Shown in pieces: positions 5,630 through 20,804 of a stretch of DNA of 64,000 bases (its first letter is position 1; the number at the start of each line of letters is the position of its first letter). The DNA is taken from the NCBI GenBank assembly GCA_021162805.1, contig JAGGXZ010000036.1:9985-73984 (forward strand), given 5' to 3'. Source of the DNA: Candidatus Poribacteria bacterium. GTDB taxonomy: Bacteria; Poribacteria; WGA-4E; B28-G17. The notes beneath the pieces are model-generated. The model was not told the DNA's origin. It worked only from the letters and a program-made list of their open reading frames with translations, and did not search any database. A program made the position numbers and the translations under genes.

Positions 5630-6025
5630 ATGGCGAGGATCATCAAGGAGATAGAGATCCAGGGACAACCGGCGTTAGCCCTGTTTGATACCGGAGCGAT
5701 CTACTCCTATGTCCGCTCGATCTTGGCCCGGGATGCCCCGGGGATAAAGGTCCCCTCCCCCCCGCGCGTGGTTCTGGGGGGAAGGGTTATTGAGATCAGG
5801 GAGCTCCGGTTGGTCAAGGGAAAGATCGAAGGACTGCCCTTCGTCGCCGAGGTGGTTCCTGTGGATGAACTGGGTCGGGCTGACGGTAAGGAACTGGATG
5901 CGATCATCGGAGCTAGAACGATGGAACAGTGGGAGATCAAGCTGGACCCTCGAACGGAATCGCTGGATCTAGAAGGGCTACGGCGCAGAGAGTTCACCGA
6001 GTTCCCTACATCACCACTGGTCTGA
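5630..6025 (+). CDS. retropepsin-like (clan AA) aspartic peptidase
   Basis: 131 aa with LFDTGAIYSYV (D-T-G-A catalytic signature) near N-terminus; size typical of bacterial/archaeal single-lobe retropepsin homologues. Confidence 0.55.
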   Translation: MARIIKEIEIQGQPALALFDTGAIYSYVRSILARDAPGIKVPSPPRVVLGGRVIEIRELRLVKGKIEGLPFVAEVVPVDELGRADGKELDAIIGARTMEQWEIKLDPRTESLDLEGLRRREFTEFPTSPLV

Positions 6026-7139: not shown

Positions 7140-8458
7140 CTTCTCACACCTCCCTCCGGCTTGATAACGACCGTGTATTTGATGATCTCCTCCGCTCCGG
7201 GCGGGAGGGTAAGCTTGAAAAGTATCGTCTGAGCGTCCTTTCGCTCATAATCGTGGCTTTTGGAGGTGATCTCCCACTCGCCCCTGAACCTCTCGTAAAC
7301 TTCAACCTTGGCGGGGATCTCCCTGTGATTACGCACCTTTATCTGATATTCCTCCTCAGTGTCATATCCCGCCACCCGGTTGTTCTTATCGAACCTGAAG
7401 TTGATCTTGGCGAAGTTCATCCGTTTTCTTTCGACCGTGATCTCGCCCTGGGAGTTGAGGGTGAGCTTCACATCGCCGCTGACCGGCGTGAAATCGATCC
7501 TCGATTCACCTATCGGTATGATCTGATCTTTCTCCCGCCCGTAAACTATCACCCTCCCCGGCGGGATGGGAGCGGAGCCGAGGTTGTGCTCTTTGTCGTT
7601 TTTGAATCTGTATTGTTTAACGACCGATTCGCCGTATTTCGAGGGATCGAAGACATATACCACATCTATCGGCACCTCTTCGGCGGAGAGCCACATCAAC
7701 CTTTTGCCCCACTCGTTTTTGAGATCAGTTCGTCTTTCGACCGAGAGCAGATAATGCTCTGAGACCATCCCGGCCTCACCGGCCTGTCTCATGTTAGCCA
7801 ACGCCTCCGTCGTCACGAATTTCCGAGCGGCCGCTTCGATTACAGGTACAGGTGCTCTCAACGCTCCTCTGCCCGCTTTCCTCATCTCCTTTCGCATCCT
7901 GTCCATCTCCTCCGCCTTCGCCGCGTATCTCTCCCTTACCACCCTGTTGATCTCACCCGCCACGAGCTTGAGCGACACCCCTTTGAAATCCTCGCCGCTC
8001 TTGTTGGAGATCTCGACATATCCCTCTAGTGAAAGCTTGGTCTCATCCTCCGACGAGATGACAGTGTAGTCCACATCCCAGTCCATTCCACCGATGAAGT
8101 ATGTGATCTTCAGCGGTTTTCTGCCCCCTTCCTCCGTTTTGATCTTCCAGACGATCATGTTCGGCTCCTCAAAGGAGGAGATAGCCGTCTGGATCGAGAC
8201 GTCCGGGATCTGGGGAAGCAGTCTTATGGAGGATGGATCGATCCTGGTGTCAGCCCATCCGAATTGAAGCCTGTTTTCGCCCTTCCTCAGCGTGATCAAC
8301 CTGCTCTCCTCGACATAGGCTATGTCTATCCCCTTATAGATCGTGACTTTCACGGACTTGCGTCCTGGGATTGTGGAGAGCTGGACCTCTCCCCACGCGT
8401 TGAAAGAAAGCGTTAAAAAGGCCCACATTCCCAGTGTGACCCAGATTAACCTCAACAT
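7136..8458 (-). CDS. secreted DUF4140/DUF4139-like protein (TIGR02231 / MuiA-like family), paralog 2
   Basis: ORF track extends to 8650 but the extension is translation of palindromic repeats; plausible start is internal Met (MLRLIWVTLGMWAFLTLSFNAWG signal peptide) at ~8458; stop overlaps next gene by 4 nt. Confidence 0.5.
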   Translation of the reverse strand: MLRLIWVTLGMWAFLTLSFNAWGEVQLSTIPGRKSVKVTIYKGIDIAYVEESRLITLRKGENRLQFGWADTRIDPSSIRLLPQIPDVSIQTAISSFEEPNMIVWKIKTEEGGRKPLKITYFIGGMDWDVDYTVISSEDETKLSLEGYVEISNKSGEDFKGVSLKLVAGEINRVVRERYAAKAEEMDRMRKEMRKAGRGALRAPVPVIEAAARKFVTTEALANMRQAGEAGMVSEHYLLSVERRTDLKNEWGKRLMWLSAEEVPIDVVYVFDPSKYGESVVKQYRFKNDKEHNLGSAPIPPGRVIVYGREKDQIIPIGESRIDFTPVSGDVKLTLNSQGEITVERKRMNFAKINFRFDKNNRVAGYDTEEEYQIKVRNHREIPAKVEVYERFRGEWEITSKSHDYERKDAQTILFKLTLPPGAEEIIKYTVVIKPEGGVRR

Positions 8459-8499
8459 ACATCCCCTCCGATACGCTGGATTCGCCCATATTATCGTTG

Positions 8500-8575
8500 A
8501 GTGTAACGGAAATCCGATCCGTTGCGTTGTAACGTTCGCTGCGTGATTGCGTTTACTGCGTTGTGCGTTACGCGA
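8500..8575. repeat. GTAACG/CGTTAC-rich degenerate palindromic repeat block in divergent intergenic region
   Basis: GTGTAACGGAAATCCGATCCGTTGCGTTGTAACGTTCGCTGCGTGATTGCGTTTACTGCGTTGTGCGTTACGCG; contains AACGGA..TCCGTT inverted repeat and reiterated TGCGTT(N)ACG units; related block at 20832-20863. Confidence 0.6.
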
Positions 8576-8593
8576 TGAACGTATCTCCTTGTT

Positions 8594-8630
8594 GGATCGA
8601 TAACCGCTACACTCAAGGGAAATTTGAGCG
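8594..8630. repeat. conserved ~35-nt intergenic palindromic element, copy A (GGATCGATAACCGCTACACTCAAGGGAAATTTGAGCG)
   Basis: Near-identical to copy at 20891-20924 (32/34 nt), partial copies at ~30442-30465 and ~31883-31903 (minus); inverted repeat GCT(ACA)CTCAA-N7-TTGAGCG. Confidence 0.7.
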
Positions 8631-8705
8631 TGTTGAACTACTCCGACCACCTAGGAGATTATACCATAATTTACCGGGTGATGTCGGCTTCTCACGTTAA
8701 TCCTC

Positions 8706-8730
8706 GAACATTTTCCGCCGAAATTTCGTC
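8706..8730 (+). promoter_or_regulatory. ECF-type promoter (GAAC-N17-CGTC) upstream of ECF sigma factor gene
   Basis: tcGAACattttccgccgaaatttCGTCtaa about 40 nt upstream of TTG start at 8772; matches the -35 GAAC / -10 CGTC architecture of autoregulated ECF sigma promoters. Confidence 0.5.
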
Positions 8731-8771
8731 TAAGAGATCGAAGGTGAGATTGAAACCTATAGAGGAAAATC

Positions 8772-9326
8772 TTGAGTGGCGAAGAAATCGTGTTGATTCA
8801 GAGGTTGAAACAGGGGGACGAGAAGGCATTCGAACAGATCTTCCGCAGATATCAGAAGAGGGTTTACAACGTCGCCTACAGAATGACCGGCAATCGCGAG
8901 ACGGCGGAGGATATGACACAGGAGGTATTCCTCCGCCTCTTCCAGAAGATCCATAAGTTCAAGGGCAAATCCTCCTTCTCCACGTGGTTGTATCGCCTAA
9001 CCGTCAATTTATGTCTGGATCACCTGCGAAAACGGAACGCACACCCGACTGAGAGTCTGGAGGATATCGACGAGAAAGCCCTTATATACGAAAAAACCCC
9101 TGAGGATGATGTCATTCTGAGGGAACGCAGAGAGGCCATACAGAGGATAATCGGCTCTCTCCCCGGTAAAATGAGGGCCATAATAATCCTTCGTGAGATA
9201 GAGGGGTTGTCCTATAAGGAGATCGCCGAGGCGATGAGCTGTTCAATGGGAAGGGTTAAATCGCTACTGCATGAGGCCAGGATGGAACTAAAACGCCGGA
9301 TGGAGAGGAATAAGGGGGAATTATGA
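8772..9326 (+). CDS. ECF (sigma-70 family, group 4) RNA polymerase sigma factor
   Basis: 184 aa; region 2 (…YRMTGNRETAEDMTQEVFLRLFQKIHKFKGKSSFSTWLYRLTVNLCLDHLRKR) and region 4 HTH (LSYKEIAEAMSCSMGRVKSLLHEARMELK); TTG start. Confidence 0.9.
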   Translation: MSGEEIVLIQRLKQGDEKAFEQIFRRYQKRVYNVAYRMTGNRETAEDMTQEVFLRLFQKIHKFKGKSSFSTWLYRLTVNLCLDHLRKRNAHPTESLEDIDEKALIYEKTPEDDVILRERREAIQRIIGSLPGKMRAIIILREIEGLSYKEIAEAMSCSMGRVKSLLHEARMELKRRMERNKGEL

Positions 9327-9889
9327 TGAGATGTCGCAATGTGCGCAGGAAACTCTCCGAGTTTTTAGACGGCGAATTGGATGAGAGAACGCGGGAGGAG
9401 ATCCGTAGACACCTCGCGATCTGTGAGGGGTGTTCCAAGGAGTATGATGAGATGGTCGAGGCCGTCTCGCTCGTCCGGGCTCTTCCGAGGCTCGAACCTC
9501 CTGGGGATATGTGGCCGGCCCTTAAAATGAAGCTCGAAAGCGCTGGAAGATCGAGATTTACATGGCGGGAGCGATTGAAGAGGTTGACGGTTCAACCCAT
9601 GGTTCAACACCCTGTTCTCGCCCCTCTGATCCTGTTTATCGTCGCCGGGGCACTTGCCACAATGGGATGGTGGATGTTCACGAGATCGGGTTCGGATATC
9701 CCGGAGATGCAATTGCTCAGCTTATATGTTCAGGAACATGCCCGATATTACTCGCGGCAGATACTGCCTTCCGATCCGTTTCTGGAATCGGAGGTCGTTC
9801 GAGAGTTGAAAGCTCCCGCCAAGGTGAGGAAAACCGGATCGAGTTATGAGCTCCAAACGTATATCAGCTTGTATTACGAAGGAGAGTGA
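9323..9889 (+). CDS. anti-sigma factor with N-terminal zinc-finger (zf-HC2) and one TM helix
   Basis: 188 aa; MMRCRNVRRKLSEFLDGELDERTREEIRRHLAICEGCSKEY (H-x3-C-x2-C motif) then TM segment PLILFIVAGALATMGWWMF; 4-nt overlap with sigma gene. Confidence 0.8.
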   Translation: MMRCRNVRRKLSEFLDGELDERTREEIRRHLAICEGCSKEYDEMVEAVSLVRALPRLEPPGDMWPALKMKLESAGRSRFTWRERLKRLTVQPMVQHPVLAPLILFIVAGALATMGWWMFTRSGSDIPEMQLLSLYVQEHARYYSRQILPSDPFLESEVVRELKAPAKVRKTGSSYELQTYISLYYEGE

Positions 9890-9893
9890 GGTC

Positions 9894-10958
9894 ATGAAGG
9901 TGATGTGGGTTTGTCTCACATTGATGCTGTTGATAACCCTCCAGCCCAGGGGGGGACGGGATTTACCCGATCCTCAAGATATACTGAGGCAGATGGTGGA
10001 GGCTGAGAGGAGAGCTGATTTCGTGGGGAGGCGCCTGGTGATAGGTTTCGGCGGACGATATAACATGGTTCGAGAGGAGAAAGTGATAAATAAATCACCG
10101 GATAAGCAACGCATCGAAGTGCTAGCCCCGCCTGAGATCGCGGGCTCCGGGTTGATCCGGCTGGGGAGACGGGAATGGCGTATACCTCCGAAGGCAAAGG
10201 GAAAACCGTTCGGACCTCCCCCATATCGTCCCGGTCCTCCACCTCCTAAATTCGGCCGCTCACAGAGGGAATTGGAACTGATGCTCCATAACTACTCGGT
10301 GGGGATAAGCCCGGGAGGGAGAATCGCCGGACGGAGGACCTATCTGCTGGAGATAAAGCCGAAACACAAAGGAAGACCGTCCAGGAGGATATGGGTGGAT
10401 GCCGAAAAGGGCCTGCCGCTTAGGGTGGAGAACTACAACTCCGAAGGCGAGCTCAGATTCCTCGTAGTGTATACCGAGATCTCCTTCCCATCAAAGATGG
10501 AAGATAAACTGTTTGTTCCCCCGAAGGAGGGCGTTGAGGGCGAAAGGAAATTTAGAGGACCATACGGCGGAGGAGAATTAAACCTTGAGGAGCTGAGACG
10601 GAAGATCTCATTCCGTATACTTATCCCGGAGTTCCTTCCCGACGGCTTTGAATTTCAAAGCGCCGGACTGATAAGATATCAAAGGCGGGAGATAGCCCAC
10701 CTGCGGTATACCGATGGACTGGTGCTGCTATCGCTGTTTGAAACGAGCGGTGGAAGGCCGGAAGGACGACATAGAGCCCGGGAGAGGGAGATGGAAAAGC
10801 CGATCCAGATACTGGGCCTGAGATGTGAGTTGTTCTATGACGGTCAGTTGCGCATATTGCGGTGGGAAAAGGGAGGTATTAACTTCACCTTGATAGGGGA
10901 TCTGAGTGAGGGGGATATGACCAAGGTCGCCGAATCCCTGATAGCACAATCACGGTGA
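9894..10958 (+). CDS. RseB/MucB- or LolA-like periplasmic protein completing the sigma/anti-sigma operon
   Basis: Signal peptide MKVMWVCLTLMLLITLQP starting 5 nt after anti-sigma stop (ORF track start 9846 is an upstream extension); Pro-rich linker; position typical of RseB. Confidence 0.5.
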   Translation: MKVMWVCLTLMLLITLQPRGGRDLPDPQDILRQMVEAERRADFVGRRLVIGFGGRYNMVREEKVINKSPDKQRIEVLAPPEIAGSGLIRLGRREWRIPPKAKGKPFGPPPYRPGPPPPKFGRSQRELELMLHNYSVGISPGGRIAGRRTYLLEIKPKHKGRPSRRIWVDAEKGLPLRVENYNSEGELRFLVVYTEISFPSKMEDKLFVPPKEGVEGERKFRGPYGGGELNLEELRRKISFRILIPEFLPDGFEFQSAGLIRYQRREIAHLRYTDGLVLLSLFETSGGRPEGRHRAREREMEKPIQILGLRCELFYDGQLRILRWEKGGINFTLIGDLSEGDMTKVAESLIAQSR

Positions 10959-11009: not shown

Positions 11010-12605
11010 TCAAAAGGCGGTGCCGAGACTGACATGGATCTTGCCGTTCAGGATGGAATCGCCGCGGGCCAGGCCATAGCAGAGATTTAGCCTCCCCGAT
11101 TGAGCCTCCAATCTCGCCCCGATGCCATAACTGATCTGGAGCTGAGGCGGATTCATCGTTCCTAAATCGACGAAGAGGAACAGATGAGATCCCAAACCGG
11201 TCAGAAACCTGTATTCCAGATTCGCATATGCCATCGATCCTCCTTGAAACCACCCCTCCGTGTATCCTCTCAGCGTGTTGGCTCCTCCTAAGCTGAAGAG
11301 CTCAAACGGCGGTATATCCCGCCCGAAAAGCCTGCCAAGGTGAGCTCCTAAAGCCAGCACCTGATTTCGCCGCGTGGATAGATAAATTTGCGCTCCAAAG
11401 GTAAGTCTCCCCAAACGGTAATCCCCCGCCGTTATCCCCAAATTAACGCTCTCAACATCCCCGGATGTTGGATTCAGCGCATAATCCCGCACATCACGCC
11501 TGAAACCAGCTTCAAATCTAACCGCCCTGTTCCTCATACCGTTCAGCTCGGCCGTCTCGTATGAGAACCCTCCCTTGATGAGATATCTGAAGTTCAATCT
11601 GCTGATAAGCGATATTCCATAGGATTTGAATCCCGCCTGACGTTCATACCTCAAACTTAGATCGATCGGTCTGCCCAAGATCCAGGGCTCAAGATATCGG
11701 AACTCGATCCGTTTCGACTCAGCCGAACGCCACTCGAAATGAAGCGCTCTTCCGCTGCCGAGTATGTTCGTCTCATCGATGAAGATCGTCCCTGTCAATT
11801 TCGCCCTACCTCCGGGAGTGATCGGTGGGGCGTATCCCAGCAGGCCCTCGATTCTCCCGCTGTGGGCCTCCGTCACGTGGGGATTGAATATGACCTCACC
11901 CGGCCTCTCACTTCTCTCGATCGCCTTCGGCTCCACATCATATATGTAGGGCATGTTCCTGAGCAGACGGATCGACTCATCGACAAGGCTCTGTCGATAC
12001 GGCATGCCCGCTCTGATGGGAAGCTGACGGAGTATCACCTTGGGCTTGGTCTTCTTAAGCCCCGTCACCCTGACGTCAGCTATCCTAACCGGATCTCCCT
12101 CATCGATCATTATATCAAAGTTGAGCTTCGATCGATCCTTGGAGAGCCGAAATTCAGTTAGGCTCATGCGTGCGAGCGGATATCCCTTTTCGGCGTAGAT
12201 CCTGAGAACCCGCTCGATCCCCTCATTGATTCTTCCAACGTCGAATTCCCCTCCCAGTTTCAACGCTCTCCTGATCTCCTTCTCGCTTAGGATCGAATTT
12301 CCAACGATCCGTATATCCCCGATCTTGACCCTTCTCCCCTCGTTCACCTTCAGGGTCAGCTTCATTCCCCCTTTGCCGCTCGGCTGAAACGAGTAATCGA
12401 TAGACGCAAAGAGATATCCGCGCCTGACATATTCCCTAAGTACCTTGGAGATCGCCGGTTCAATCTCCTCCTTTGAGACCTCCCCGCCTGGCGTGAGCTG
12501 GAGAGTTCGAAGCAGATCTGCCCTTGAGATGATCTTATTTCCGGTTATCTCGATCGAATCCACCTTCACAGCGGCGATGATGAACGTGAGGGTGATTATG
12601 ATCAT
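11010..12605 (-). CDS. Omp85-family outer-membrane protein (BamA/TamA-like) with POTRA domains and C-terminal D15/surface-antigen beta-barrel
   Basis: 531 aa; POTRA-like repeats (IRIVGNSILSEKEIRRALKL…), C-terminal barrel ending …KIHVSLGTAF (aromatic terminus). Confidence 0.85.
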   Translation of the reverse strand: MIIITLTFIIAAVKVDSIEITGNKIISRADLLRTLQLTPGGEVSKEEIEPAISKVLREYVRRGYLFASIDYSFQPSGKGGMKLTLKVNEGRRVKIGDIRIVGNSILSEKEIRRALKLGGEFDVGRINEGIERVLRIYAEKGYPLARMSLTEFRLSKDRSKLNFDIMIDEGDPVRIADVRVTGLKKTKPKVILRQLPIRAGMPYRQSLVDESIRLLRNMPYIYDVEPKAIERSERPGEVIFNPHVTEAHSGRIEGLLGYAPPITPGGRAKLTGTIFIDETNILGSGRALHFEWRSAESKRIEFRYLEPWILGRPIDLSLRYERQAGFKSYGISLISRLNFRYLIKGGFSYETAELNGMRNRAVRFEAGFRRDVRDYALNPTSGDVESVNLGITAGDYRLGRLTFGAQIYLSTRRNQVLALGAHLGRLFGRDIPPFELFSLGGANTLRGYTEGWFQGGSMAYANLEYRFLTGLGSHLFLFVDLGTMNPPQLQISYGIGARLEAQSGRLNLCYGLARGDSILNGKIHVSLGTAF

Positions 12606-12608
12606 GGG

Positions 12609-13355
12609 TCAGACCTCTGTCGGTTGATCCTCTTTTCTGCCTATGAAGTAAACGGCCGAGGCTATCAGGTGGGAGTTAGGTAGTCTGATGAGGATCGGGT
12701 CGAGAATGATAACCATTGGGAAGGTGATCCAGCCGAAGATGAGCGAGATCGCCTTACCGATCCAAAAATTACCGAAGGAAAGTGCGATCCCCACCAACTC
12801 GCGCATCACCCAATGTAGGGCGCTCGCTGGCCCCACACACGGCCCGGACTCGATCCTCCGGAAATCCGAGAGCAATTTCTCCAGGCCGGTCACCGTATAT
12901 CGCTGATAATCGTTCGGTGAGGCATGATACCCTTGTATGAAGGGCACCGCCACACAGATGTATCCTCCGGGTTTTAGAACTCTCCGGATCTCATAGATCA
13001 CAGCTTTCGGATCGGGCACGTGTTCCAGCACTGCCTCGCTTATGACGGCGTCGAACGATTCATCTTTGAACGGCAGCATCGCTCCGTCGCCTATCACGTC
13101 CACATTCGGAAATGGCTCGATATCCAGGTTAACCACACTTGACGCCCACCTTCGGTTACCGGAGCCCAGATCAAGGGCGATCCCCTCATCGCCTATCTCC
13201 CTGAGGATCCTCCTTACGGCTTTATCCCACCTAGGTGCCCTGTAGGGACATCCGGAGAGATTCCAGAGTATTCTGTTTCTGCGGAGGAAGGATTTCAGGC
13301 TCGACTCAACACCCTCCGATATACGTCGAGGTATCTCTCGGCTATCCTGGCCCAA
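12609..13355 (-). CDS. class I SAM-dependent methyltransferase (Methyltransf_11-like) with C-terminal TM segment
   Basis: LDLGSGNRRW (motif I), FDAVISEAVLEHV, VLKPGGYICVAVPF (motif post-II); 60-nt overlap with downstream GT4 ORF suggests the true start is uncertain. Confidence 0.7.
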   Translation of the reverse strand: MGQDSREIPRRISEGVESSLKSFLRRNRILWNLSGCPYRAPRWDKAVRRILREIGDEGIALDLGSGNRRWASSVVNLDIEPFPNVDVIGDGAMLPFKDESFDAVISEAVLEHVPDPKAVIYEIRRVLKPGGYICVAVPFIQGYHASPNDYQRYTVTGLEKLLSDFRRIESGPCVGPASALHWVMRELVGIALSFGNFWIGKAISLIFGWITFPMVIILDPILIRLPNSHLIASAVYFIGRKEDQPTEV

Positions 13356-14440
13356 TCGTATCTCTCGACCGATCTGATCGCCTCGGCGCCCATCCTGATT
13401 CTGGCCTGGCCGTCCTCTATCAGGAGCGAGATCCTATCGGCGAGCGCCTGAGAATCAGAGGGATCCTCGATCAGGTATCCGTTTACCCCGTCGTGAACCA
13501 GCTCCTCGATCCCCTGCACTTTAGTGGCGACGACGGGCAATCCCATAGCCATCGCCTCAAGCACGACCAGAGGCATTCCTTCGGCCGAGGAACAGAGCGT
13601 AAAAAGATCGGCTGATTCATACCTCTTATGAAGCCTTTCATACGGGATGGTCCCCGAAAAGACCACGAGATCATCGACCTTGAGCTTTTTTGCAAGCTCT
13701 TTCAGCTCATCCATCATGGGGCCATCCCCGACGATCTCCACTGTGAACTTTCTCCCCGTCATCCCCCTCAGGTGAGGCAGGGCGGATATCAGATGATGGA
13801 ACCCTTTGCGCGGGATGAGTCTTCCTATTGAGAGAACCCTGACCACGTCCGGCTCGGCCTCGCGTTTTGGCGCGTGGAATCGAGATAGATCTATGCCATC
13901 CGGTATGACCTCTATCCGTGTCTCCGGATCGGTCCGCAGAGCTAGCTTCCTCAATCCTTCGCTACATGCGATGACTGCCCCGGCCGAACGCCATATCGCC
14001 CTTATGGCCGGTTTGAGGATCGGATAGAGGTAACGATAGTAAGGAGGATCGGGGTTAGGTCTGGGCACATCCCTGCCGCCCAGGAACACGACGTACGGAT
14101 ATCCCGTCGTCTTACCTATCGCGTATGCCACGGGACCTGATGGGATGCCGAAGAAAACCTGAACGATATCCGGACGGATGACGGGGACATATCTGAACGA
14201 CCAGACAAGGGCACTCAGGATGTAGGTGAACATCTCATGCACTTTAGCTACGTTCGGGCTTCTCCGGATCACCGGAACCCGATAAACCTTAACCCCATCG
14301 ATGATCTCATGCCGTGGCAGTCGATCGAAATGGGACGTGACCAAGGTGACATCATGACCCCGCCTTGCGAACTCCCTCCCGAGATATCTGGTAACGATCC
14401 CGCCTCCACCACCTATGGGGGGGAATTCGTAATTGACCAT
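13295..14440 (-). CDS. GT4-family glycosyltransferase (GT-B fold)
   Basis: 381 aa; N-term MVNYEFPPIGGGGGIVTRYLGREFARRGHDV and C-term EGMPLVVLEAMAMGLPVVATKVQGIEELV (E-x7-E motif region). Confidence 0.85.
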   Translation of the reverse strand: MVNYEFPPIGGGGGIVTRYLGREFARRGHDVTLVTSHFDRLPRHEIIDGVKVYRVPVIRRSPNVAKVHEMFTYILSALVWSFRYVPVIRPDIVQVFFGIPSGPVAYAIGKTTGYPYVVFLGGRDVPRPNPDPPYYRYLYPILKPAIRAIWRSAGAVIACSEGLRKLALRTDPETRIEVIPDGIDLSRFHAPKREAEPDVVRVLSIGRLIPRKGFHHLISALPHLRGMTGRKFTVEIVGDGPMMDELKELAKKLKVDDLVVFSGTIPYERLHKRYESADLFTLCSSAEGMPLVVLEAMAMGLPVVATKVQGIEELVHDGVNGYLIEDPSDSQALADRISLLIEDGQARIRMGAEAIRSVERYDWARIAERYLDVYRRVLSRA

Positions 14441-14459
14441 CAGTATTCGCAGCTTCCTA

Positions 14460-15344
14460 TCATCGACTTTTATACCGCGATCTATCTACATTACCTCCAT
14501 ATCTGAGAACATAGAAGATGACGTTGGTCATGAATCTATATACGTCATTCGACCTTCGTCGGGCCAGCAGGGTTCGGCTTGGCACCTCAACCGTTTCCAT
14601 ACAGCACATGTAATCCTTTCGGTTATATATAACGGCCCATCTCCCCTTGATCTTGATCCCCCGTATGTAGGGGAAAAGCGATTGTGCCTTGATGTTCTCT
14701 GACCCCCAGAAGACATCCCCCCCGGTAGGAGGTCCGGGGAGCTTGTAGTAGATCTTGAAAATCCTGTCGGTCCGCCGTATGGGTTCTATCTGATACTCAG
14801 GTAGGGTCAATCTCAGTTCCTCCCTCACCCTACCAGCGAAAAGGCCCTTGAAACCACAGTCGTCGAAGAAGAGCGTGCCCTTCCTCTCGACGAGATACTT
14901 CCGAAGCATCCTTCTCTCCTGTGGGGTCAAAGATGTGACGAGCCTGAAGGGTGGGCCGTTCCTGCCATCCCTTTCGAGGTTATGCTGGAAGACCACCCCT
15001 TCATCGTGTCCCGTCATGATGATCAGCGGTGCATCTAGTATTCTGGGATCGGTCAGCTCGAGTGAGCCATCGCCTATCCGCATATCGGCTCTGATCCTGG
15101 TTCTGGTCTGAAGCCACTCGATCAAACCGGTAAGCGCCGTCGGATCCTGCCACCAGTCCGCCATCCTGTGTTTTAACCTCACCAACCTGATAAACCCATC
15201 GGCGTTTAAGCCTCTCCCTATCAACACGCCCCCAAGTTTACCCGGCGGAAGCGACGGACCGGACTCATCGGTCTCCCCAAAGGATGAAGAAGGCCCCATG
15301 AAAGCGATAGACAAACCGACCATGCATATGATGATCCCTTTCAT
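14460..15344 (-). CDS. DUF4159-like protein (GATase1-like fold family), secreted; paralog of 15831-17192
   Basis: 294 aa with signal peptide; shares long blocks (GFIRLVRLKHRMADWWQDPTAL, TGHDE, GTLFFDDCGF..LFAGRVREEL, GPPTGGD.FWGSEN, GRWAVIYNRKDY.CCMET) with the paralog; family assigned from memory. Confidence 0.5.
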   Translation of the reverse strand: MKGIIICMVGLSIAFMGPSSSFGETDESGPSLPPGKLGGVLIGRGLNADGFIRLVRLKHRMADWWQDPTALTGLIEWLQTRTRIRADMRIGDGSLELTDPRILDAPLIIMTGHDEGVVFQHNLERDGRNGPPFRLVTSLTPQERRMLRKYLVERKGTLFFDDCGFKGLFAGRVREELRLTLPEYQIEPIRRTDRIFKIYYKLPGPPTGGDVFWGSENIKAQSLFPYIRGIKIKGRWAVIYNRKDYMCCMETVEVPSRTLLARRRSNDVYRFMTNVIFYVLRYGGNVDRSRYKSR

Positions 15345-15354
15345 CTTTCCCGCT

Positions 15355-15591
15355 CTACTCAGCTTTCAGGGCAACAGGTACTCGGGCGATAAGGCGTATA
15401 TCGTCCTGAGGCACTTGCTGCCCTTCCTCCGATAACACTTCCAGATGTAAGGTGATAGCCTCCCTCACGTTCTGCAGTGCTTCTTCAATCGTCTCACCTT
15501 GTGAGAAACATCCCGGCAGCGCCGGTACCTCCACCCAATATCCTCCCTCTTCAGCATCGTGAATGATAACGGTATAATCCATTGACTCCAC
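15355..15591 (-). CDS. hicB: HicB-family antitoxin (UPF0150)
   Basis: 78 aa; YTVIIHDAEEGGYWVEVPALPGCFSQGETIEEALQNVREAI is the canonical HicB RNase-H-like N-domain; GTG/ATG start. Confidence 0.8.
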   Translation of the reverse strand: MESMDYTVIIHDAEEGGYWVEVPALPGCFSQGETIEEALQNVREAITLHLEVLSEEGQQVPQDDIRLIARVPVALKAE

Positions 15592-15592
15592 C

Positions 15593-15783
15593 TCATAGTA
15601 GATTGATGAATTCTTCCTCAGTTAATCCTGCTTTACGAATAGCTGCCTTGAGCAAACCAACTTTAATTTCCCCTGTAACAGGAATAGTGATCAATTGTCC
15701 ATTTGGCATTTTGATGTTAACATGACTGCCTTTCCCTTGCGAACTTCACCCCCCCGCTCGTTTAAAGGCTCTGACAGCTTCAT
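15593..15783 (-). pseudogene. hicA: hicA toxin gene with a -1 frameshift (GGG->GG) early in the ORF
   Basis: Minus-strand ATG AAG CTG TCA GAG CCT TTA AAC GAG CGG GGG GGT GAA GTT CGC AAG GGA AAG G|CA… gives MKLSEPLNERGGEVRKGK then stops after 29 codons; shifting one base restores GKGSHVNIKMPNGQLITIPVTGEIKVGLLKAAIRKAGLTEEEFINLL* (HicA GSH…ILKQAGL architecture), ending 1 nt before hicB start; 191 nt, not a multiple of 3. Confidence 0.65.
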
Positions 15784-15830
15784 ATCCTTTTATACCTCGT
15801 AATAAACGTCCCTGCATCTTTATCATTCAC

Positions 15831-17192
15831 TTACGGCTTATACTGAGATCTATCCACGTTACCTCCATACTTCATGGCGTAGAAGAGGAGGTTCGTCATG
15901 AACTTATGCACGTCGGTCGATCGACGCAGTCTCAGCAACGTTCTGCTCGGTATCTCCATCGTCTCCATGCAGCAGAGGTAATCCTTCCGGTTGTAGATAA
16001 CCGCCCATCTTCCGTTTATTTTAACCCCCCATTGATACGGGAACTGGGAGGCATGTGGATTGTTCTCCGAGCCCCAGAAGATATCCCCGCCCGTCGGTGG
16101 ACCGGGCAGGGTATAATAGACGCTGTAAAGCTCATCGTTTTTATCTATGATCTGGAGCGGATATTCGGGCAGTGCCCTCCTGAGCTCCTCTCTGACCCTT
16201 CCGGCGAACAGCCCGTGAAATCCACAGTCATCGAAGAAAAGGGTGCCTTTTCTGTCGATCAGATACTTCCGTAGGGCGGCCCTCTCCTCGGGGGTGAACT
16301 CCTGGGCGAGCTGGAACTTGGCGCCTTTCTGCCCGTCGCTGTTCATGTGATGGTTCAAAACCACATCCTCATCATGTCCCGTCATAATGACCAGCGGAGC
16401 GTCCAGTATCCTCGGATCGGTCAGTTCGAGCGCTCCTCCCTCGATGCGCATGTCGGCCTTTAGCCTTGTGTGCTCCTCAAGCCAGTCGATGAAGCTGGCC
16501 AACGCCGTCGGGTCCTGCCACCAGTCCGCCATCCTATGCTTCAGCCTTACGATTCTGATGAACCCCATCACGTCCTTCCCCTTCCCGACCAGAACGGCGC
16601 CGAGTTTCCCTTCGGGGATATAGTAGAGCTTCGCCATATCACCGCTCAGTTCCCCACCGAGATCCACCTCGCCGGAGGTATTAACCAGCGACAATCCGGG
16701 CTGTTTGTTTATGCCGAGAGCTCTGACCCTTCCCGTCTGGAATCCCTTTCCAATCTTCAATCCTTTAGGCGATCCACCTGAGGGCGACAGGGAGATATCC
16801 CCGATCTTGGCGGGGATTTTAGCGGTGGTGTCCAGCTTGTTGACCATCCCCAGCTCCTTATCGGCGTTGACGTCGAGGCTACGGGGGATGATGTTAGGCG
16901 CCTTGGCGACGACCTCGGAGATCACGTTATCGGACTGAACGGATAACTTCGGGACGTTTTTATCCTCGAGATCCCTTTCAATGTCGAACTTAGGCTTGAT
17001 CGTCTTGGTCAACGGCCTTCTCGGCGGCCTCACCCTGTAATTGGACATATCGACCAGTTCGATCCAGGCGCCTGATCCCTCATTATAGGTCGTCCTTATG
17101 GCTAAACCCAGGATTATTATCCCTATCAGGTGCGCGACCAAGGCTATGAGAAAGGCCGATGTGGTCGGCCTCCTTTTGAACATCTCTCTCAC
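15831..17192 (-). CDS. membrane-anchored DUF4159-like protein (N-terminal TM helix, ~200-aa linker, C-terminal DUF4159-like domain)
   Basis: 453 aa; TM SAFLIALVAHLIGIIILGLAI; C-terminal half collinear with 14460-15344 paralog. Confidence 0.5.
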   Translation of the reverse strand: MREMFKRRPTTSAFLIALVAHLIGIIILGLAIRTTYNEGSGAWIELVDMSNYRVRPPRRPLTKTIKPKFDIERDLEDKNVPKLSVQSDNVISEVVAKAPNIIPRSLDVNADKELGMVNKLDTTAKIPAKIGDISLSPSGGSPKGLKIGKGFQTGRVRALGINKQPGLSLVNTSGEVDLGGELSGDMAKLYYIPEGKLGAVLVGKGKDVMGFIRIVRLKHRMADWWQDPTALASFIDWLEEHTRLKADMRIEGGALELTDPRILDAPLVIMTGHDEDVVLNHHMNSDGQKGAKFQLAQEFTPEERAALRKYLIDRKGTLFFDDCGFHGLFAGRVREELRRALPEYPLQIIDKNDELYSVYYTLPGPPTGGDIFWGSENNPHASQFPYQWGVKINGRWAVIYNRKDYLCCMETMEIPSRTLLRLRRSTDVHKFMTNLLFYAMKYGGNVDRSQYKP

Positions 17193-18411
17193 CTTCTTTT
17201 ATATGTATCTTCAATCTGATTTTATCCCCTTTACCATCTTCTATGTCGGCTGAAAGCCTCTCCATATATCCCAGTGGGGTCAAACTTCCCAGCGATTCAT
17301 ACACCAGCTTGGATCTCCTATCCTTACTTGCAAGGGCGGCTAAGGAGAACATCAGAGAGAACTTCTTTATCTCACGGCTCAGATTCCGCAGGTCGACTTC
17401 GAGATGTCCAACCGGATCGATCTTCACGTTCCAATCGGCATCCCTCAAAAATAAGGCCACTCTTTCAACGGATTCCAGAGGTGTTCCGATGACAACCTTG
17501 CCCTTTAAACGGATATATCCTGCCGATATCGGGACGGGGATCGGGCCGGATATCCGAAGGGGTGAGATCTCAATCTCATCTCTTTTCACCTTGGGCATCT
17601 CCTTTATCGTCATTCCCTTCCTCAGCAGAAGGGATCTGAGCCATTCCAGTCCCTTATCATCCGTTACGACCGTTACGCTTGGTGACATTCCTCCCCCAGG
17701 TGAGAGAAACAGGGCGTCGATATGTCCGGTCCGGAGATAGAGGGTCAATAAGGCGTCAGGGGGTTGGGGCGGCAGGAAATCACCCTTTTCGGCCGATGGC
17801 AGTGGAATTCCGGATATTCGCAGTTCGTTCTCTGAGATTATCTCATCTCCGAGGTTTCGATTGACCGAGATCCACTCCCCTTCGGCGACCTTCAAGGTGT
17901 CTAAGTCGACGTAGAGGGAGAGATCTGATTTCACAAGCGATCGGGCGATCTCCGGCCTTCGCCTGGCGAAGCAATCGCCGCCATCCCGATAGAGATCTAT
18001 CGATCTCTTAAGCAAGCCCTTATCCGTGCTGAGAAGGCCGAGCTTCCCGATAAAGGTATAATGAAACCTACGTGGAAATCCGGAGTTGACCGTGGTGATG
18101 TTACATCCTCTATACCTCTCGTTCGTTATCCCATAGTAGTTCTTCGAGGCGGTTGCCTGTGAGGTGGTGATCTCAACCTTCCCCTGGGATGATACGAAGG
18201 ATGCCATAAAGAGCTCCGTCCTACCCTTACGGTAGAGGGCCAGGACGCTCCTGTCACCGGCCACCTTTCTAAGATCTTCGATTTTAAATGGGACTCCAAA
18301 CCCGAACTCCCACATCTTTAGCTGCCATTTCATCTCCCTCCACCATTCCCTCCCCTTGATGTATCTCGCTATGGGGGTTTCGGATATCTCTCTGGCGAAA
18401 TCCGACTTCAT
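17083..18411 (-). CDS. hypothetical protein (442 aa), first gene of the minus-strand array; start uncertain
   Basis: Long ORF with no recognisable motif; 3' end overlaps next gene by 110 nt in a different frame; in-frame upstream 60 codons encode a signal-anchor helix (KRKLFFIIPVLIISVAAAGYISF) after a perfect SD GGAGGTGATC but contain no ATG/GTG/TTG. Confidence 0.4.
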   Translation of the reverse strand: MKSDFAREISETPIARYIKGREWWREMKWQLKMWEFGFGVPFKIEDLRKVAGDRSVLALYRKGRTELFMASFVSSQGKVEITTSQATASKNYYGITNERYRGCNITTVNSGFPRRFHYTFIGKLGLLSTDKGLLKRSIDLYRDGGDCFARRRPEIARSLVKSDLSLYVDLDTLKVAEGEWISVNRNLGDEIISENELRISGIPLPSAEKGDFLPPQPPDALLTLYLRTGHIDALFLSPGGGMSPSVTVVTDDKGLEWLRSLLLRKGMTIKEMPKVKRDEIEISPLRISGPIPVPISAGYIRLKGKVVIGTPLESVERVALFLRDADWNVKIDPVGHLEVDLRNLSREIKKFSLMFSLAALASKDRRSKLVYESLGSLTPLGYMERLSADIEDGKGDKIRLKIHIKEGERDVQKEADHIGLSHSLGRAPDRDNNPGFSHKDDL

Positions 18412-18728
18412 GATTTCTTCGGCGATTTGAGCGAAGTTGGAGGATGTGAGGCAGAGAAAAGGGCTACCGGGAACGATATAGATCAGCTCGGCCCGTGGCT
18501 TATAAAAATATCTAAATGATATATATCCCGCTGCGGCGACCGATATTATGAGAACCGGTATGATGAAGAAAAGCTTCCTTTTGATCTTCGATCACCTCCG
18601 GATCGGCATCATAGTAAATCTTACCATAAGGGTGGGTTGAATCTCAACATCTTATGCACGGGCGGAGGTTTTATGCTATAATTTACACGAAGCATAACAG
18701 CCGCCGTTACTTTGGAGGAGAAGGGTAG

Positions 18729-20804
18729 ATGAAAGAATACAGGACGGAACAGATCAGAAATGTCGCTTTAATAGGCAATGCCGGTTCAGGTAAAACTTCA
18801 TTGATCGATGCCTTTCTATTCGACGCCGGAGCAGTTGACAGGCTCGGGCGGGTTGACGCCGGTAACTCCTTTGTGGATTACGATCCTGAGGAGATAAATC
18901 GAAAGACCACGCTGAGTCTGAAGATATGTATCGCCGAATGGGGAGAGTGCAAACTGAATATCCTCGATACGCCGGGTTATGAGGACTTCTACGGCGATTT
19001 GGCCAGTGCCTTGAGGGTTGTCGATTCCGCCTTGGTCGTGATCGATGCCGTTACAGGCGTCGGAGGCGGGACGGAGAAAAGTTGGATGATGGCTGATAAA
19101 TACGGACTGCCGAGGGCGATCGTCATAAACAAGCTCGATGCCGAACAGGCTGACTTTGACGGGGTAATCGATCAGATCCAACAGGAGCTGGGCGCCAGGC
19201 TTATGCCGCTACATATCCCGATAGGCAGGGGGAGCTCCTTCTCCGGCATAGTCGACATCATCTCGATGAAAGCCTATCAGTTCGAGGGAGAGGGCAGCGG
19301 GAAGTTTGAGGAGAAGGACATACCGGGGGAACTGTTCTCCAGGGCGGAGGAGCTCCGAGAATCCTTGATAGAAGCGGCAGCGGAGGGCGAGGATGAGCTG
19401 ACCGAGAAATACCTCGAGGGCGAGGAGCTCACGCCGGATGAGATAATGAGGGGATTGAAGGCCTCTATCCGCCAGGGAATCGTCGTTCCGGTGATGTGTG
19501 CATCGGCGTATCAGAACATCGCTGTGCCGTTCATCCTGGATTTCATCGTCAAATCGCTCCCCTCACCCGTCGAATCGAAACCGATAGAAAGCGTCGATGG
19601 CGAGGAAAACCGTGATCCCTCTCCCGATGCCCCGTTGGCGGCTTTGGTCTTCAAGACGACCTCCGACCCGTACGTCGGGAAAATCAGCTACATCAGGGTC
19701 TTTTCGGGAACCCTCAGCGCCGATTCACAGGTCTTCAACTCAAGTAGAGGAGCAGGTGAAAGGGTTACGAAGCTCTACCACCTCAACGGGAAAAACCAGA
19801 TCGAAACCCCCAAGATCATAGCCGGTGATCTCGGAATAGCTGTCAAGCTTCAATCTGCTTCCACTGGCGATACCCTCTGCGCGCCGGACGCCAAGATAAC
19901 CCTGCCGGGGATCGAGTTCCCCAAACCCGTTCTCTCGCTCGCCATATCAGCCAAAAGCCAGAGTGACGACGATAAACTGAGCACTATCCTCACCTCAATA
20001 GCTGAAGAGGATCCGACCTTCCAGGTTCAACGCGATCAGGAGATGAGACAGGTGATCGTCTCCGGATTGGGCGACGTGCATCTGAACGTCACCCTGGAGA
20101 GGATCAAACGCAGATACAACATCGAGGCGACCACAGCGACACCTAAGGTTCCTTATCGCGAGACGATACGCAAATCGGTTGAGGGGATACACGCCCGCTA
20201 TAAGAAACAGACTGGCGGAAGAGGGCAGTTCGCCGATGTGGTCATAAAGATGGAACCGCTTCCACGGGGAGAGTATTTCGAGTTCGTGGATGAGATCTTC
20301 GGCGGGGCGATCCCGCGCAACTTCATCCCGGCGGTCGAGAAGGGGATCAGGAACTCGATGCAGAGCGGAGTGCTGGCCGGTTTTCCCGTCGTCGACATCA
20401 AGGTAACCCTCTATGACGGCAAGTTCCATCCGGTCGACTCCTCCGATCTGGCTTTCCAGATAGCCGCCTCCATGGCCTTTAAAGAGGCGATGCAAAAGGC
20501 CGATCCGGTGCTGCTCGAGCCGATAATGAATGTTGAGGTCACCGTGCCGGAGGAGCATATGGGCGATGTGTTGGCTGACCTCAACAGCCGCCGCGGCAGA
20601 GTGCTTGGCGTCGATCAACAGGGTAAATATCAGGTGATCAAGGCTCAAGTGCCTATGGCAGAGATGTTTAGATATGCTCTTGATCTGCGATCGATGACCA
20701 GCGCGAGGGGATGGTTCACGATGGAGTTCTCGCACTACGAGGAGGTGCCATACGACATCGCCCAGAAGATCATCGCCGCCGCTCAGGCCGAAAAGGAGGA
20801 TTGA
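18729..20804 (+). CDS. elongation factor G-family translational GTPase (EF-G paralog with atypical P-loop)
   Basis: 691 aa; G domain (NVALIGNAGSGKTSLIDA, DTPGYEDF, NKLD), domains II-V collinear with EF-G; G1 is GNAGSGKTS rather than AHIDAGKTT of canonical FusA. Confidence 0.8.
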   Translation: MKEYRTEQIRNVALIGNAGSGKTSLIDAFLFDAGAVDRLGRVDAGNSFVDYDPEEINRKTTLSLKICIAEWGECKLNILDTPGYEDFYGDLASALRVVDSALVVIDAVTGVGGGTEKSWMMADKYGLPRAIVINKLDAEQADFDGVIDQIQQELGARLMPLHIPIGRGSSFSGIVDIISMKAYQFEGEGSGKFEEKDIPGELFSRAEELRESLIEAAAEGEDELTEKYLEGEELTPDEIMRGLKASIRQGIVVPVMCASAYQNIAVPFILDFIVKSLPSPVESKPIESVDGEENRDPSPDAPLAALVFKTTSDPYVGKISYIRVFSGTLSADSQVFNSSRGAGERVTKLYHLNGKNQIETPKIIAGDLGIAVKLQSASTGDTLCAPDAKITLPGIEFPKPVLSLAISAKSQSDDDKLSTILTSIAEEDPTFQVQRDQEMRQVIVSGLGDVHLNVTLERIKRRYNIEATTATPKVPYRETIRKSVEGIHARYKKQTGGRGQFADVVIKMEPLPRGEYFEFVDEIFGGAIPRNFIPAVEKGIRNSMQSGVLAGFPVVDIKVTLYDGKFHPVDSSDLAFQIAASMAFKEAMQKADPVLLEPIMNVEVTVPEEHMGDVLADLNSRRGRVLGVDQQGKYQVIKAQVPMAEMFRYALDLRSMTSARGWFTMEFSHYEEVPYDIAQKIIAAAQAEKED

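What the first reader, a model, noticed from the sequence alone, without database searches (positions are those of the whole stretch)
11010..18411. 7.4-kb co-directional array: unknown 442-aa protein - TM-anchored DUF4159-like - hicAB - DUF4159-like - GT4 - methyltransferase - Omp85/BamA-like; candidate undescribed surface-biogenesis/export module
Seven to eight minus-strand genes run with very short gaps (0-40 nt) from 18411 to 11010. Two are paralogous DUF4159-like proteins (one membrane-anchored with a ~200-aa linker, one secreted). They are followed by a GT4 glycosyltransferase, a SAM methyltransferase with a C-terminal membrane segment, and an Omp85-family POTRA/beta-barrel protein that is distinct from a housekeeping BamA context (no skp/lpxD/fabZ neighbours). 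The DUF4159 family has no assigned function. Its pairing here with a glycosyl- and methyl-transferase and a dedicated Omp85 transporter suggests a system that modifies and exports a surface glycoconjugate or protein.
Basis: inference. Interest (0 to 1): 0.55.

Follow-up and report, generated by a model that had tools for sequence, protein, structure and literature searches.

The report
Mosaic envelope-gene operon in Poribacteria
The eight tightly packed genes are real, but they are a patchwork of separately evolving units, not a dedicated export machine. The units are two membrane-anchored proteins of unknown function, a sugar-transferase/methyltransferase pair, a decaying toxin-antitoxin insert, and what is most likely the phylum's general outer-membrane-protein assembly gene.

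Summary
The window comes from a Candidatus Poribacteria genome, not an FCB genome.

Corrections:
- The "442-aa unknown" is really about 500 aa. It is membrane-anchored, appears to start at a conserved ATC codon, is a divergent DUF3352-family protein, and has a TP0453-like fold.
- hicA is disrupted in the window.

Comparison with more than 130 related loci shows a mosaic:
- geneA-DUF4159-GT4-MTase stays together only in a small Poribacterial clade (five lineages).
- About 78 other Poribacterial DUF4159 loci lack these partners. They sit next to an ABC exporter plus DUF1854, next to a DUF4252-Omp85 fusion, or alone.
- The GT4-MTase pair recurs elsewhere without DUF4159, including inside O-antigen-like glycan clusters.
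- The Omp85 gene is the ortholog of a Poribacteria-wide BamA-type protein. It follows the MTase only in this species and lies elsewhere in the next relatives.
- hicAB is a strain-level insertion.

A dedicated Omp85 export module is therefore not supported. A looser envelope theme is plausible. The functions of DUF4159 and DUF3352 remain unknown. Interest is modest.

The parts
18618..18647 (-). Sigma-70-like promoter candidate (TTGAGA-18-TAAGAT with TG) upstream of geneA
   Evidence: Consensus scan. It is well placed but not statistically enriched: 4 sites were found against 6.9 expected from shuffles.
17083..18585 (-). geneA: about 500-aa inner-membrane-anchored periplasmic protein, a divergent DUF3352-family member with a TP0453-like alpha/beta/alpha fold. 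The annotated ORF 17083-18411 is N-terminally truncated. The probable start is ATC at 18585-18583, after the Shine-Dalgarno sequence GGAGGTGA.
15831..17192 (-). TM-anchored DUF4159 protein. It has an N-terminal TM helix with an invariant His, an unmodelled low-conservation region of about 170 residues, and a C-terminal DUF4159 domain. It overlaps the end of geneA by about 101 nt.
   Evidence: PF13709, 96 bits; His invariant in 35 of 35 full-length homologs; TM helix; overlap.
15593..15826 (-). hicA toxin gene, disrupted. A +1 G (G7 versus G6) and a -1 A put 7 codons out of frame, including a TGA at 15748-15746.
   Evidence: comparison with the intact hicA in L005.
15355..15591 (-). hicB antitoxin gene, intact
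   Evidence: HicB_lk_antitox, 61.5 bits. (100% identical copy in L005; absent from all other loci).
14460..15344 (-). Secreted DUF4159 paralog (signal peptide plus domain only), a tandem duplicate of the domain of the upstream gene
13295..14440 (-). GT4 glycosyltransferase
   Evidence: It is paired with the MTase in many unrelated loci.
12609..13355 (-). Class I SAM methyltransferase with a C-terminal hydrophobic segment
   Evidence: Homologs and their contexts.
11010..12605 (-). BamA-type Omp85 protein with three POTRA domains and a beta-barrel carrying an LRGY motif
   Evidence: POTRA x3, Omp85. (TIGR03303 174.7 bits, cutoff 297; TamA 37.6 bits). (orthologs and their contexts).

Best explanation
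The array is probably one transcription unit, but it is an evolutionary mosaic of four independent pieces that share only a general cell-envelope theme.

(1) Clade-specific core. geneA and the TM-anchored DUF4159 gene overlap by about 101 nt and are likely translationally coupled. Both products are anchored in the inner membrane by one N-terminal helix and face the periplasm.
- geneA carries a TP0453 / Mog1-PsbP-like alpha/beta/alpha fold. That fold class includes lipid- and glycolipid-binding envelope proteins.
- DUF4159 is a class-I glutamine-amidotransferase-like (ThuA/GIFT-like) domain. It is most likely non-catalytic, on a region of about 170 residues inferred to be a flexible tether.
- My inference is that the two act as a periplasmic binding/adaptor pair serving envelope export or assembly. 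A secreted duplicate of the DUF4159 domain adds a soluble copy.

(2) GT4 plus MTase. This is a widely distributed two-gene unit of surface-glycan biosynthesis. In this clade it has become fixed next to the core.

(3) Omp85. It is the Poribacterial BamA-type ortholog, which I infer does general outer-membrane-protein assembly. It landed at the 3' end of the array only in this species.

(4) hicAB. This is a selfish insertion whose toxin gene is already broken.

Shown: gene content, homology, folds and the synteny patterns. Inferred: co-transcription, periplasmic topology, the ligand-binding/adaptor role, and the housekeeping role of Omp85.
For: Gene content and spacing.

Core block:
- It is conserved in the window, L005, L003/L004, L002 and L006 while the flanks differ. 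The window and L003 have EF-G upstream; L002 has T2SS pseudopilin and GH9 upstream. Omp85 lies downstream only in the window; L002 has CxxCxxCC and radical SAM there, and L006 has a convergent ORF.
- The geneA/DUF4159 overlap is also seen in L003, L005 and L006.

Mosaicism:
- None of the other roughly 78 Poribacterial DUF4159 loci has geneA, GT4, MTase or this Omp85.
- They fall into other synteny groups: ABC exporter-DUF1854-DUF4159 in 19 loci, mostly with an 8-nt gap; DUF4252-DUF4252-(DUF4252+Omp85)-DUF4159 in 5; flanked by opposite-strand genes in 16.
- MTase homologs from metagenomes sit beside a GT4 in many loci, and none of these loci has DUF4159, geneA or Omp85.
- In L098 and L099 the pair lies in a DegT-GT4-MTase-LPG_synthase_TM-FemAB/GNAT-PMT_2-Wzy_C cluster.

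Omp85:
- About 60 Poribacterial orthologs of 600-640 aa at 34-40% identity.
- Their best family match is BamA TIGR03303, at 175-260 bits.
- Their contexts differ.

hicAB: present only in the window and L005. hicA is intact in L005 and broken in the window. A near-identical strain has vapBC-like fragments upstream of GT4 instead.

Folds:
- The subfamily's invariant Cys aligns to Ala in 4i66, which argues against a family-wide nucleophile.
- DUF1854 has been proposed as a subunit of an ABC exporter (bioRxiv 10.1101/072470).
Against: - No experimental or expression data are available, so co-transcription is inferred from spacing alone. The promoter-like site is not statistically enriched.
- The four-gene core might be retained simply because the five lineages are close relatives. 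DUF4159 identity across them is 71-97%.
- The TP0453 resemblance is structural only; there is no sequence signal. TP0453's own function is a proposal, not a demonstration.
- Whether Poribacteria have another, canonical BamA could not be tested.
- DUF4159 lies near an Omp85-family gene in two independent synteny groups. My rough estimate puts that at about 0.5% by chance, and it hints at a real DUF4159-Omp85 link that this explanation treats as coincidence.
Confidence: 0.55

Rival explanations
1. The whole array is one dedicated system in which GT4 and MTase modify a glycoconjugate or protein, and a specialised Omp85 exports it across the outer membrane with help from the DUF4159 proteins.
For: Tight co-directional packing. 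All products are envelope-related. GT4-MTase-Omp85 adjacency is kept in L087/L088.
Against: L087/L088 are the same species, 96-97% identical in nucleotide sequence. Omp85 is absent after the MTase in L002 and L006, and its 67% ortholog lies elsewhere. The Omp85 is the phylum-wide BamA-type ortholog. No cargo-type gene (TpsA or TamB) is present. GT4-MTase pairs occur without Omp85 or DUF4159.
Confidence: 0.08
2. IM-anchored DUF4159 proteins are periplasm-spanning partners of outer-membrane Omp85-family barrels and of inner-membrane exporters. This would be a Poribacteria-specific trans-envelope coupling, loosely analogous to TamB-TamA or TonB-receptor pairs. The window would show one instance of it.
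Against: The Omp85 adjacency in the window is species-specific. The two Omp85 proteins belong to different subfamilies. No ExbB/ExbD-like ORF is found in any of the 84 loci or in the window, though this was a weak test that used E. coli sequences recalled from memory. Sixteen loci are flanked by opposite-strand genes and 33 more fall in other, mostly unshared contexts. The chance estimate was made after seeing the pattern.
Confidence: 0.12
3. There is no functional relationship at all. The array is a run of unrelated genes compacted together, and even the geneA-DUF4159 pairing is a lineage accident.
For: geneA is found next to DUF4159 only in this small clade. Distant geneA homologs have other neighbours. 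DUF4159 has many different contexts.
Against: The 101-nt overlap between geneA and DUF4159 is kept in several lineages even though geneA has diverged to 29% identity in L006. The four-gene block survives rearrangement of its flanks.
Confidence: 0.2

Closest known systems
DUF4159 (Pfam PF13709); solved member Hoch_4089 of Haliangium ochraceum (PDB 4i66)
   Different: This is a Poribacteria-specific subfamily with the motifs DWWQDP(T/S)A and LFFDDCGF. It has a TM anchor carrying an invariant His and a linker of about 170 residues. Its two invariant Cys residues are not shared with 4i66, where the first aligns to Ala. No function is known for any member; the only paper that mentions the family is the Pfam database paper.
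TP0453 of Treponema pallidum (PDB 3k8g), an outer-membrane-associated lipoprotein proposed to carry lipids or glycolipids
   Different: No sequence similarity is detectable. geneA is anchored by an N-terminal TM helix in the inner membrane, not lipid-anchored to the outer membrane. It is twice as long. By sequence it belongs to the DUF3352 family.
BamA (TIGR03303), the outer-membrane-protein assembly factor
   Same: POTRA domains plus an Omp85 barrel with an LRGY motif. BamA is the best family match for the window protein and for its Poribacterial orthologs. About one ortholog was recovered per large contig.
   Different: It scores below the curated cutoff (175-260 bits against 297). It has three POTRA domains instead of five. 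It has no skp/lpxD/fabZ context; its neighbours vary between lineages.
GldG / IFT52 GIFT-domain proteins and ThuA-like proteins (non-catalytic GATase1-like domains; GldG is an auxiliary component of an ABC transporter)
   Different: The similarity is at fold level only. The role of GldG is recalled from memory and was not tested here. The window's own DUF4159 genes are not next to an ABC transporter.
O-antigen / exopolysaccharide biosynthesis clusters containing a GT4-methyltransferase pair
   Same: The closest metagenomic GT4-MTase pairs (54-61% identity) lie in DegT-GT4-MTase-LPG_synthase_TM-FemAB/GNAT-PMT_2-Wzy_C clusters.
   Different: The window has only the two enzymes. No flippase, polymerase or ligase gene is nearby.
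HicAB type II toxin-antitoxin module
   Same: There is a HicB-like antitoxin (61.5 bits), and an adjacent hicA whose intact form is present in L005.
   Different: hicA in the window is disrupted by a +1/-1 indel pair. The module is an insertion inside the array.

Membership tests
DUF4159 (PF13709) | Pfam HMM score above the gathering threshold | tested here: met
   96.2 and 97.5 bits against a cutoff of 25.9.
DUF4159 (PF13709) | Fold of the solved family member 4i66 | tested here: met
Catalytic class-I glutamine amidotransferase | Cys-His-Glu triad with a Cys nucleophile conserved across the family | tested here: not met
DUF3352 (PF11832) | Pfam HMM score above the gathering threshold (26.8 bits) | tested here: inconclusive
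   geneA and its close homologs give no Pfam hit. Distant relatives found with a geneA profile do pass: P0134 at 55.5 bits, P0136 at 53.8, P0127 at 41.8.
TP0453-like outer-membrane lipoprotein | Alpha/beta/alpha fold similarity | tested here: met
TP0453-like outer-membrane lipoprotein | Sequence homology and a lipoprotein signal (lipobox) | tested here: not met
   The profile search of PDB sequences gives no hit. The N-terminus is a TM helix without a lipobox.
BamA (TIGR03303 equivalog) | Score above the curated cutoff of 297 bits | tested here: not met
   174.7 bits for the window protein and 170-260 bits for Poribacterial orthologs. BamA is still the best-matching family.
BamA (TIGR03303 equivalog) | POTRA domains plus an Omp85 barrel with the loop-6 (V/I/L)RG(F/Y) motif | tested here: met
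   Three POTRA stretches plus Omp85. LRGY can be read directly in the translation. The canonical five POTRA domains are not present.
BamA (TIGR03303 equivalog) | Single essential copy per genome | not testable with these tools
   No whole-genome scan was possible. About one ortholog per large contig was recovered. A distant DUF4252-Omp85 paralog exists in some Poribacteria.
TamA/TamB translocation and assembly module | TamA model score, and an adjacent tamB (DUF490) gene | tested here: not met
   NF047950 scores 37.6 bits against a cutoff of 625. No TamB-like gene is in the array. The only very large ORF in the window is an Ig-repeat protein.
TpsB two-partner secretion transporter | ShlB-type barrel and an adjacent TpsA cargo gene | tested here: not met
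   There is a POTRA_2 hit (48.9 bits) but no ShlB domain hit, and no TpsA-like neighbour.
HicAB toxin-antitoxin | Intact HicA toxin ORF next to HicB | tested here: not met
   HicB is intact. hicA carries a +1/-1 indel pair with an internal TGA; the L005 copy is intact.
TonB/TolA-type energy-transducing anchor | SxxxH motif in the TM helix, plus an ExbBD/TolQR partner | tested here: inconclusive
   The His is invariant in 35 of 35 full-length homologs within an (S/A)xxxH pattern; the window protein has Ala at the Ser position. No ExbB/ExbD-like ORF was found in the 84 loci or the window with a low-sensitivity phmmer test. The motif definition is recalled from memory.

The most novel reading that the evidence does not exclude
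Poribacteria have expanded a subfamily of inner-membrane-tethered DUF4159 proteins, often with two copies per genome. These proteins would act as periplasm-spanning adaptors that couple inner-membrane exporters (ABC plus DUF1854) and outer-membrane Omp85 barrels. In the window's clade one such adaptor would work with a TP0453-fold lipid-binding protein and a GT4/MTase pair to deliver a methylated glycolipid to the outer membrane. That would give DUF4159 and DUF3352 their first functions.
Probability: 0.1. Interest if true: 0.6.

Novelty: new member of a known kind. Interest (0 to 1): 0.3.

Why it matters
If the mosaic reading is right, the locus is an ordinary operon-like run of envelope genes in an uncultured phylum, and the proposed new export system does not exist as such.

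Three things of lasting use come out of the work:
- It assigns the "unknown 442-aa" gene to the DUF3352 family, with a corrected N-terminus and a TP0453-like fold.
- It shows that Poribacterial DUF4159 proteins are tethered periplasmic domains.
- It shows that their recurrent neighbours (an ABC exporter with DUF1854, a DUF4252-Omp85 fusion, GT4/MTase) are all envelope-related.

The third point gives a testable lead for two families that have no functional literature in the library searched here.

Tried and rejected
1. TGA recoding. In-frame TGAs upstream of geneA and inside hicA first suggested TGA read as Trp. I rejected this for three reasons. TGA ends 16 of 31 ordinary genes. The geneA TGA is part of the Shine-Dalgarno sequence GGAGGTGA that precedes a conserved ATC. 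The hicA TGA results from a +1/-1 indel pair, not from a TGG-to-TGA change.

2. DUF4159 as a thiol enzyme. The invariant Cys follows a beta-strand, as a nucleophile elbow would, but it aligns to Ala in 4i66. It is more likely half of a periplasmic disulfide with the second invariant Cys; this could not be checked because no model coordinates were available.

3. TonB-like motor coupling. No ExbB/ExbD-like ORF lies near any DUF4159 gene (weak test).

4. Anti-phage defence system. PADLOC gives only a generic MTase-domain hit.

5. Exact-sequence look-ups of the window's own DUF4159 protein found no record.

6. The afdb50 fold library was unavailable.

7. Literature searches. DUF3352 gave no papers. 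DUF4159 gave only the Pfam database paper. Poribacteria plus BamA gave nothing relevant.

8. The distant geneA homolog P0126 is not followed by a DUF4159 gene.

Full report
**Observation**

The minus strand between 11010 and 18585 carries a tightly packed run of genes. Pfam and NCBIfam identify them as follows:
- an ORF without any family hit (17083-18411);
- a DUF4159 protein with an N-terminal TM helix (15831-17192; PF13709, 96 bits);
- a HicB-like antitoxin (15355-15591);
- a second DUF4159 protein with a signal-like N-terminus (14460-15344; 97.5 bits);
- a GT4 glycosyltransferase (13295-14440);
- a Methyltransf_11 enzyme with a C-terminal hydrophobic segment (12609-13355);
- a protein with three POTRA domains and an Omp85 barrel (11010-12605).

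Inter-gene distances are -101, 4, 10, 10, 19, -61 and 3 nt. Kyte-Doolittle hydropathy supports the anchors and signals.

The organism is Candidatus Poribacteria, a candidate phylum of its own and not an FCB member.

**Three corrections to the gene models**

*1. The "442-aa" gene is N-terminally truncated.*
- The reading frame stays open upstream and encodes a TM helix. This stretch aligns with the N-terminus of the L002 homolog and of P0122.
- An ATC at 18585-18583 sits six nt after a perfect Shine-Dalgarno sequence, GGAGGTGA. It is conserved in the window, L003 and L005, and it aligns with the ATG start codon of L002.
- The protein is thus about 500 aa, with one N-terminal TM helix and a large periplasm-facing body.

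*2. hicA is broken.* Compared with the intact copy in L005, the window has one extra G in a G-run and one A fewer 20 nt downstream. Seven codons are out of frame and include a TGA. This could be real decay or homopolymer sequencing errors.

*3. The genetic code is standard.* TGA ends 16 of 31 genes.

**What the two unknown proteins are**

*geneA.* A word-based search found only four homologs. An exhaustive profile search of 1.84 billion representative proteins found 30. The distant ones, about 540-560 aa with the same N-terminal anchor, pass the Pfam threshold for DUF3352. geneA is therefore a divergent, shortened DUF3352-family member.

The Poribacterial subfamily has two invariant cysteines. 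The first aligns to Ala in 4i66. A family-wide catalytic nucleophile is therefore unlikely, and a periplasmic disulfide is the simpler reading (inference).

All 35 full-length homologs have an invariant His in the TM helix within an (S/A)xxxH pattern. This resembles TonB/TolA anchors; that motif definition comes from memory and is a lead only. No ExbB/ExbD-like gene lies nearby (low sensitivity).

In the library searched here, no paper mentions DUF3352, and DUF4159 appears only in the Pfam database paper.

**Neighbourhood conservation, the decisive test**

*DUF4159 loci.* A scan of 185,579 species genomes with a DUF4159 alignment found 264 relatives. The best 80 are all Poribacteria, and many genomes carry two copies. 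I compared the window's proteins with these loci and with four loci obtained earlier by exact-protein look-ups (84 loci in total).
- geneA, GT4 and MTase lie next to DUF4159 only in a small clade: L005 (96% identity), L003/L004 (88%), L002 (83%) and L006 (71%).
- In that clade the four-gene block is kept while the flanks differ. geneA still overlaps DUF4159 even where it has diverged to 29% identity (L006).
- The secreted DUF4159 duplicate is present in the window, L005 and L002, but not in L003/L004 or L006.
- hicAB is present only in the window and L005.
- A strain 96-97% identical to the window (L087/L088) has vapBC-like fragments directly upstream of GT4, where its contig ends.

*The other loci.* The remaining roughly 78 loci fall into unrelated synteny groups:
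- an ABC exporter plus DUF1854 followed by DUF4159, mostly after 8 nt (19 loci);
- DUF4159 alone between opposite-strand genes (16 loci);
- DUF4252, DUF4252 and a DUF4252-Omp85 fusion followed by DUF4159 (5 loci; Pfam);
- several smaller groups beside housekeeping genes.

DUF1854 has been proposed, from fitness data, to be a subunit of an ABC exporter (bioRxiv 10.1101/072470).

*GT4 and MTase.* These form their own unit. A metagenome scan with the MTase returned 48 loci. Many have a GT4 directly beside the MTase homolog, and none has DUF4159, geneA or Omp85. In the two long contigs with the closest pairs (L098 and L099), the pair lies in a co-directional DegT-GT4-MTase-LPG_synthase_TM-FemAB/GNAT-PMT_2-Wzy_C cluster. 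That is a surface-glycan biosynthesis locus.

*Omp85.* It has about 60 Poribacterial orthologs of 600-640 aa at 34-40% identity, annotated "BamA/TamA family".
- The best family match for the window protein and its orthologs is BamA TIGR03303, at 175-260 bits. This is under the 297-bit cutoff. TamA scores far lower.
- Its neighbours change from lineage to lineage. L087/L088, the same species, have GT4-MTase-Omp85 followed by a convergent RseB / anti-sigma / ECF sigma operon. The 67% ortholog in L089 stands alone between opposite-strand genes; L089 comes from the same metagenome as L002, where the MTase is followed by other genes. In a closed genome the ortholog is overlapped by a GT9 heptosyltransferase gene.
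- No Omp85 of this type occurs in any of the 84 DUF4159 loci, and the window holds only one Omp85 gene.
- The absence of skp/lpxD/fabZ neighbours is therefore not evidence of specialisation, because the Poribacterial orthologs have no conserved neighbourhood at all.

**Interpretation**

The array is a mosaic of four pieces:
- a clade-specific core of two inner-membrane-tethered periplasmic proteins, with a secreted duplicate of one of them;
- a widely distributed glycan GT4-MTase pair that is fixed next to the core in this clade;
- the phylum's BamA-type gene, placed at the 3' end only in this species;
- a decaying hicAB insertion.

The tight spacing makes co-transcription likely. A promoter-like site lies at 18618-18647 and no convincing internal terminator was found, but these consensus matches are not significant.

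My mechanistic commitment carries low confidence, about 0.25, for the functional part:
- geneA binds a hydrophobic or amphipathic envelope molecule through its TP0453-like domains.
- DUF4159 is a non-catalytic adaptor on a flexible tether that works with envelope export or assembly machines.
- GT4 and MTase build a methylated glycan at the cytoplasmic face.
- The Omp85 assembles outer-membrane proteins generally.

**What remains open**

DUF4159 lies within three genes of an Omp85-family gene in two independent contexts. A rough calculation made after seeing the pattern assumes about three Omp85 genes among 5,000, six neighbouring positions and about 30 independent contexts. It gives roughly a 0.5% chance of two or more such cases. 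This is the basis of the novel case, but the two Omp85 proteins belong to different subfamilies and the adjacency in the window is species-specific.

Whether Poribacteria also encode a canonical five-POTRA BamA could not be tested, because no whole-genome scan was available.

**Verdict**

The parts belong to known families, so I rate novelty as a new member of a known kind, with modest interest.

Noticed in passing
window 18583-18600 (minus strand): geneA appears to start at a non-canonical ATC codon, six nt after a perfect Shine-Dalgarno sequence (GGAGGTGA). The ATC is conserved in the window, L003 and L005, and aligns with the ATG start of L002. Public annotation starts the gene 58 codons too late and so misses the TM anchor.
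   Followed up: partly
window 15728-15760 (minus strand), compared with L005 2998-3231: hicA carries a compensating +1 G / -1 A indel pair in two homopolymer runs 20 nt apart, which creates an internal TGA. The nearest relative has an intact hicA. This is either real toxin decay or homopolymer sequencing errors.
   Followed up: yes
L087 1-570 and L087 12966-13615, compared with window 14457 and 1942-1948: A strain 96-97% identical to the window has vapBC-like fragments directly upstream of GT4, where its contig ends, and an extra PemK-type toxin-antitoxin pair that the window lacks. Toxin-antitoxin content varies at strain level around this locus.
   Followed up: partly
window 8772-10958 (plus strand): An ECF sigma factor, a zf-HC2 anti-sigma factor and a MucB/RseB-like protein form an operon that resembles an envelope-stress system. 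It converges on the 3' end of the Omp85 gene, and the arrangement is kept in L087/L088.
   Followed up: no
L028, L032, L038, L042, L052 (about 6400-9815 in each): Some Poribacteria encode a 690-aa fusion of a DUF4252 domain, a POTRA-like region and an Omp85 barrel. It is preceded by two stand-alone DUF4252 genes and followed, after 176 nt, by a TM-anchored DUF4159 gene.
   Followed up: partly
L001, L033, L056 and 16 further loci (about 6300-10000 in each): An ABC exporter with an N-terminal zinc-ribbon extension and a DUF1854 protein sit directly upstream of a TM-anchored DUF4159 gene, typically with an 8-nt gap. This is the most common tight context of this subfamily.
   Followed up: partly
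window 18729-20804 (plus strand); L025, L030, L048 at 11698-14750: The EF-G gene divergent from geneA is only 42% identical to the EF-G of the S12-S7-EF-G operon in other Poribacteria, so it is probably an EF-G paralog. In those three loci a DUF4159 gene lies just upstream of rpsL-rpsG-fusA.
   Followed up: no
window 46673-54202 (minus strand): A 2,509-aa protein made of Big_1, He_PIG, PKD and cadherin-like Ig repeats, with a dockerin domain and a C-terminal FlgD_ig domain. It is probably a giant surface adhesin.
   Followed up: no
window 6006-8650 (minus strand): Two adjacent genes with weak DUF4139 / MuiA-like matches lie next to the ECF sigma operon. The pair is conserved in L087/L088.
   Followed up: no
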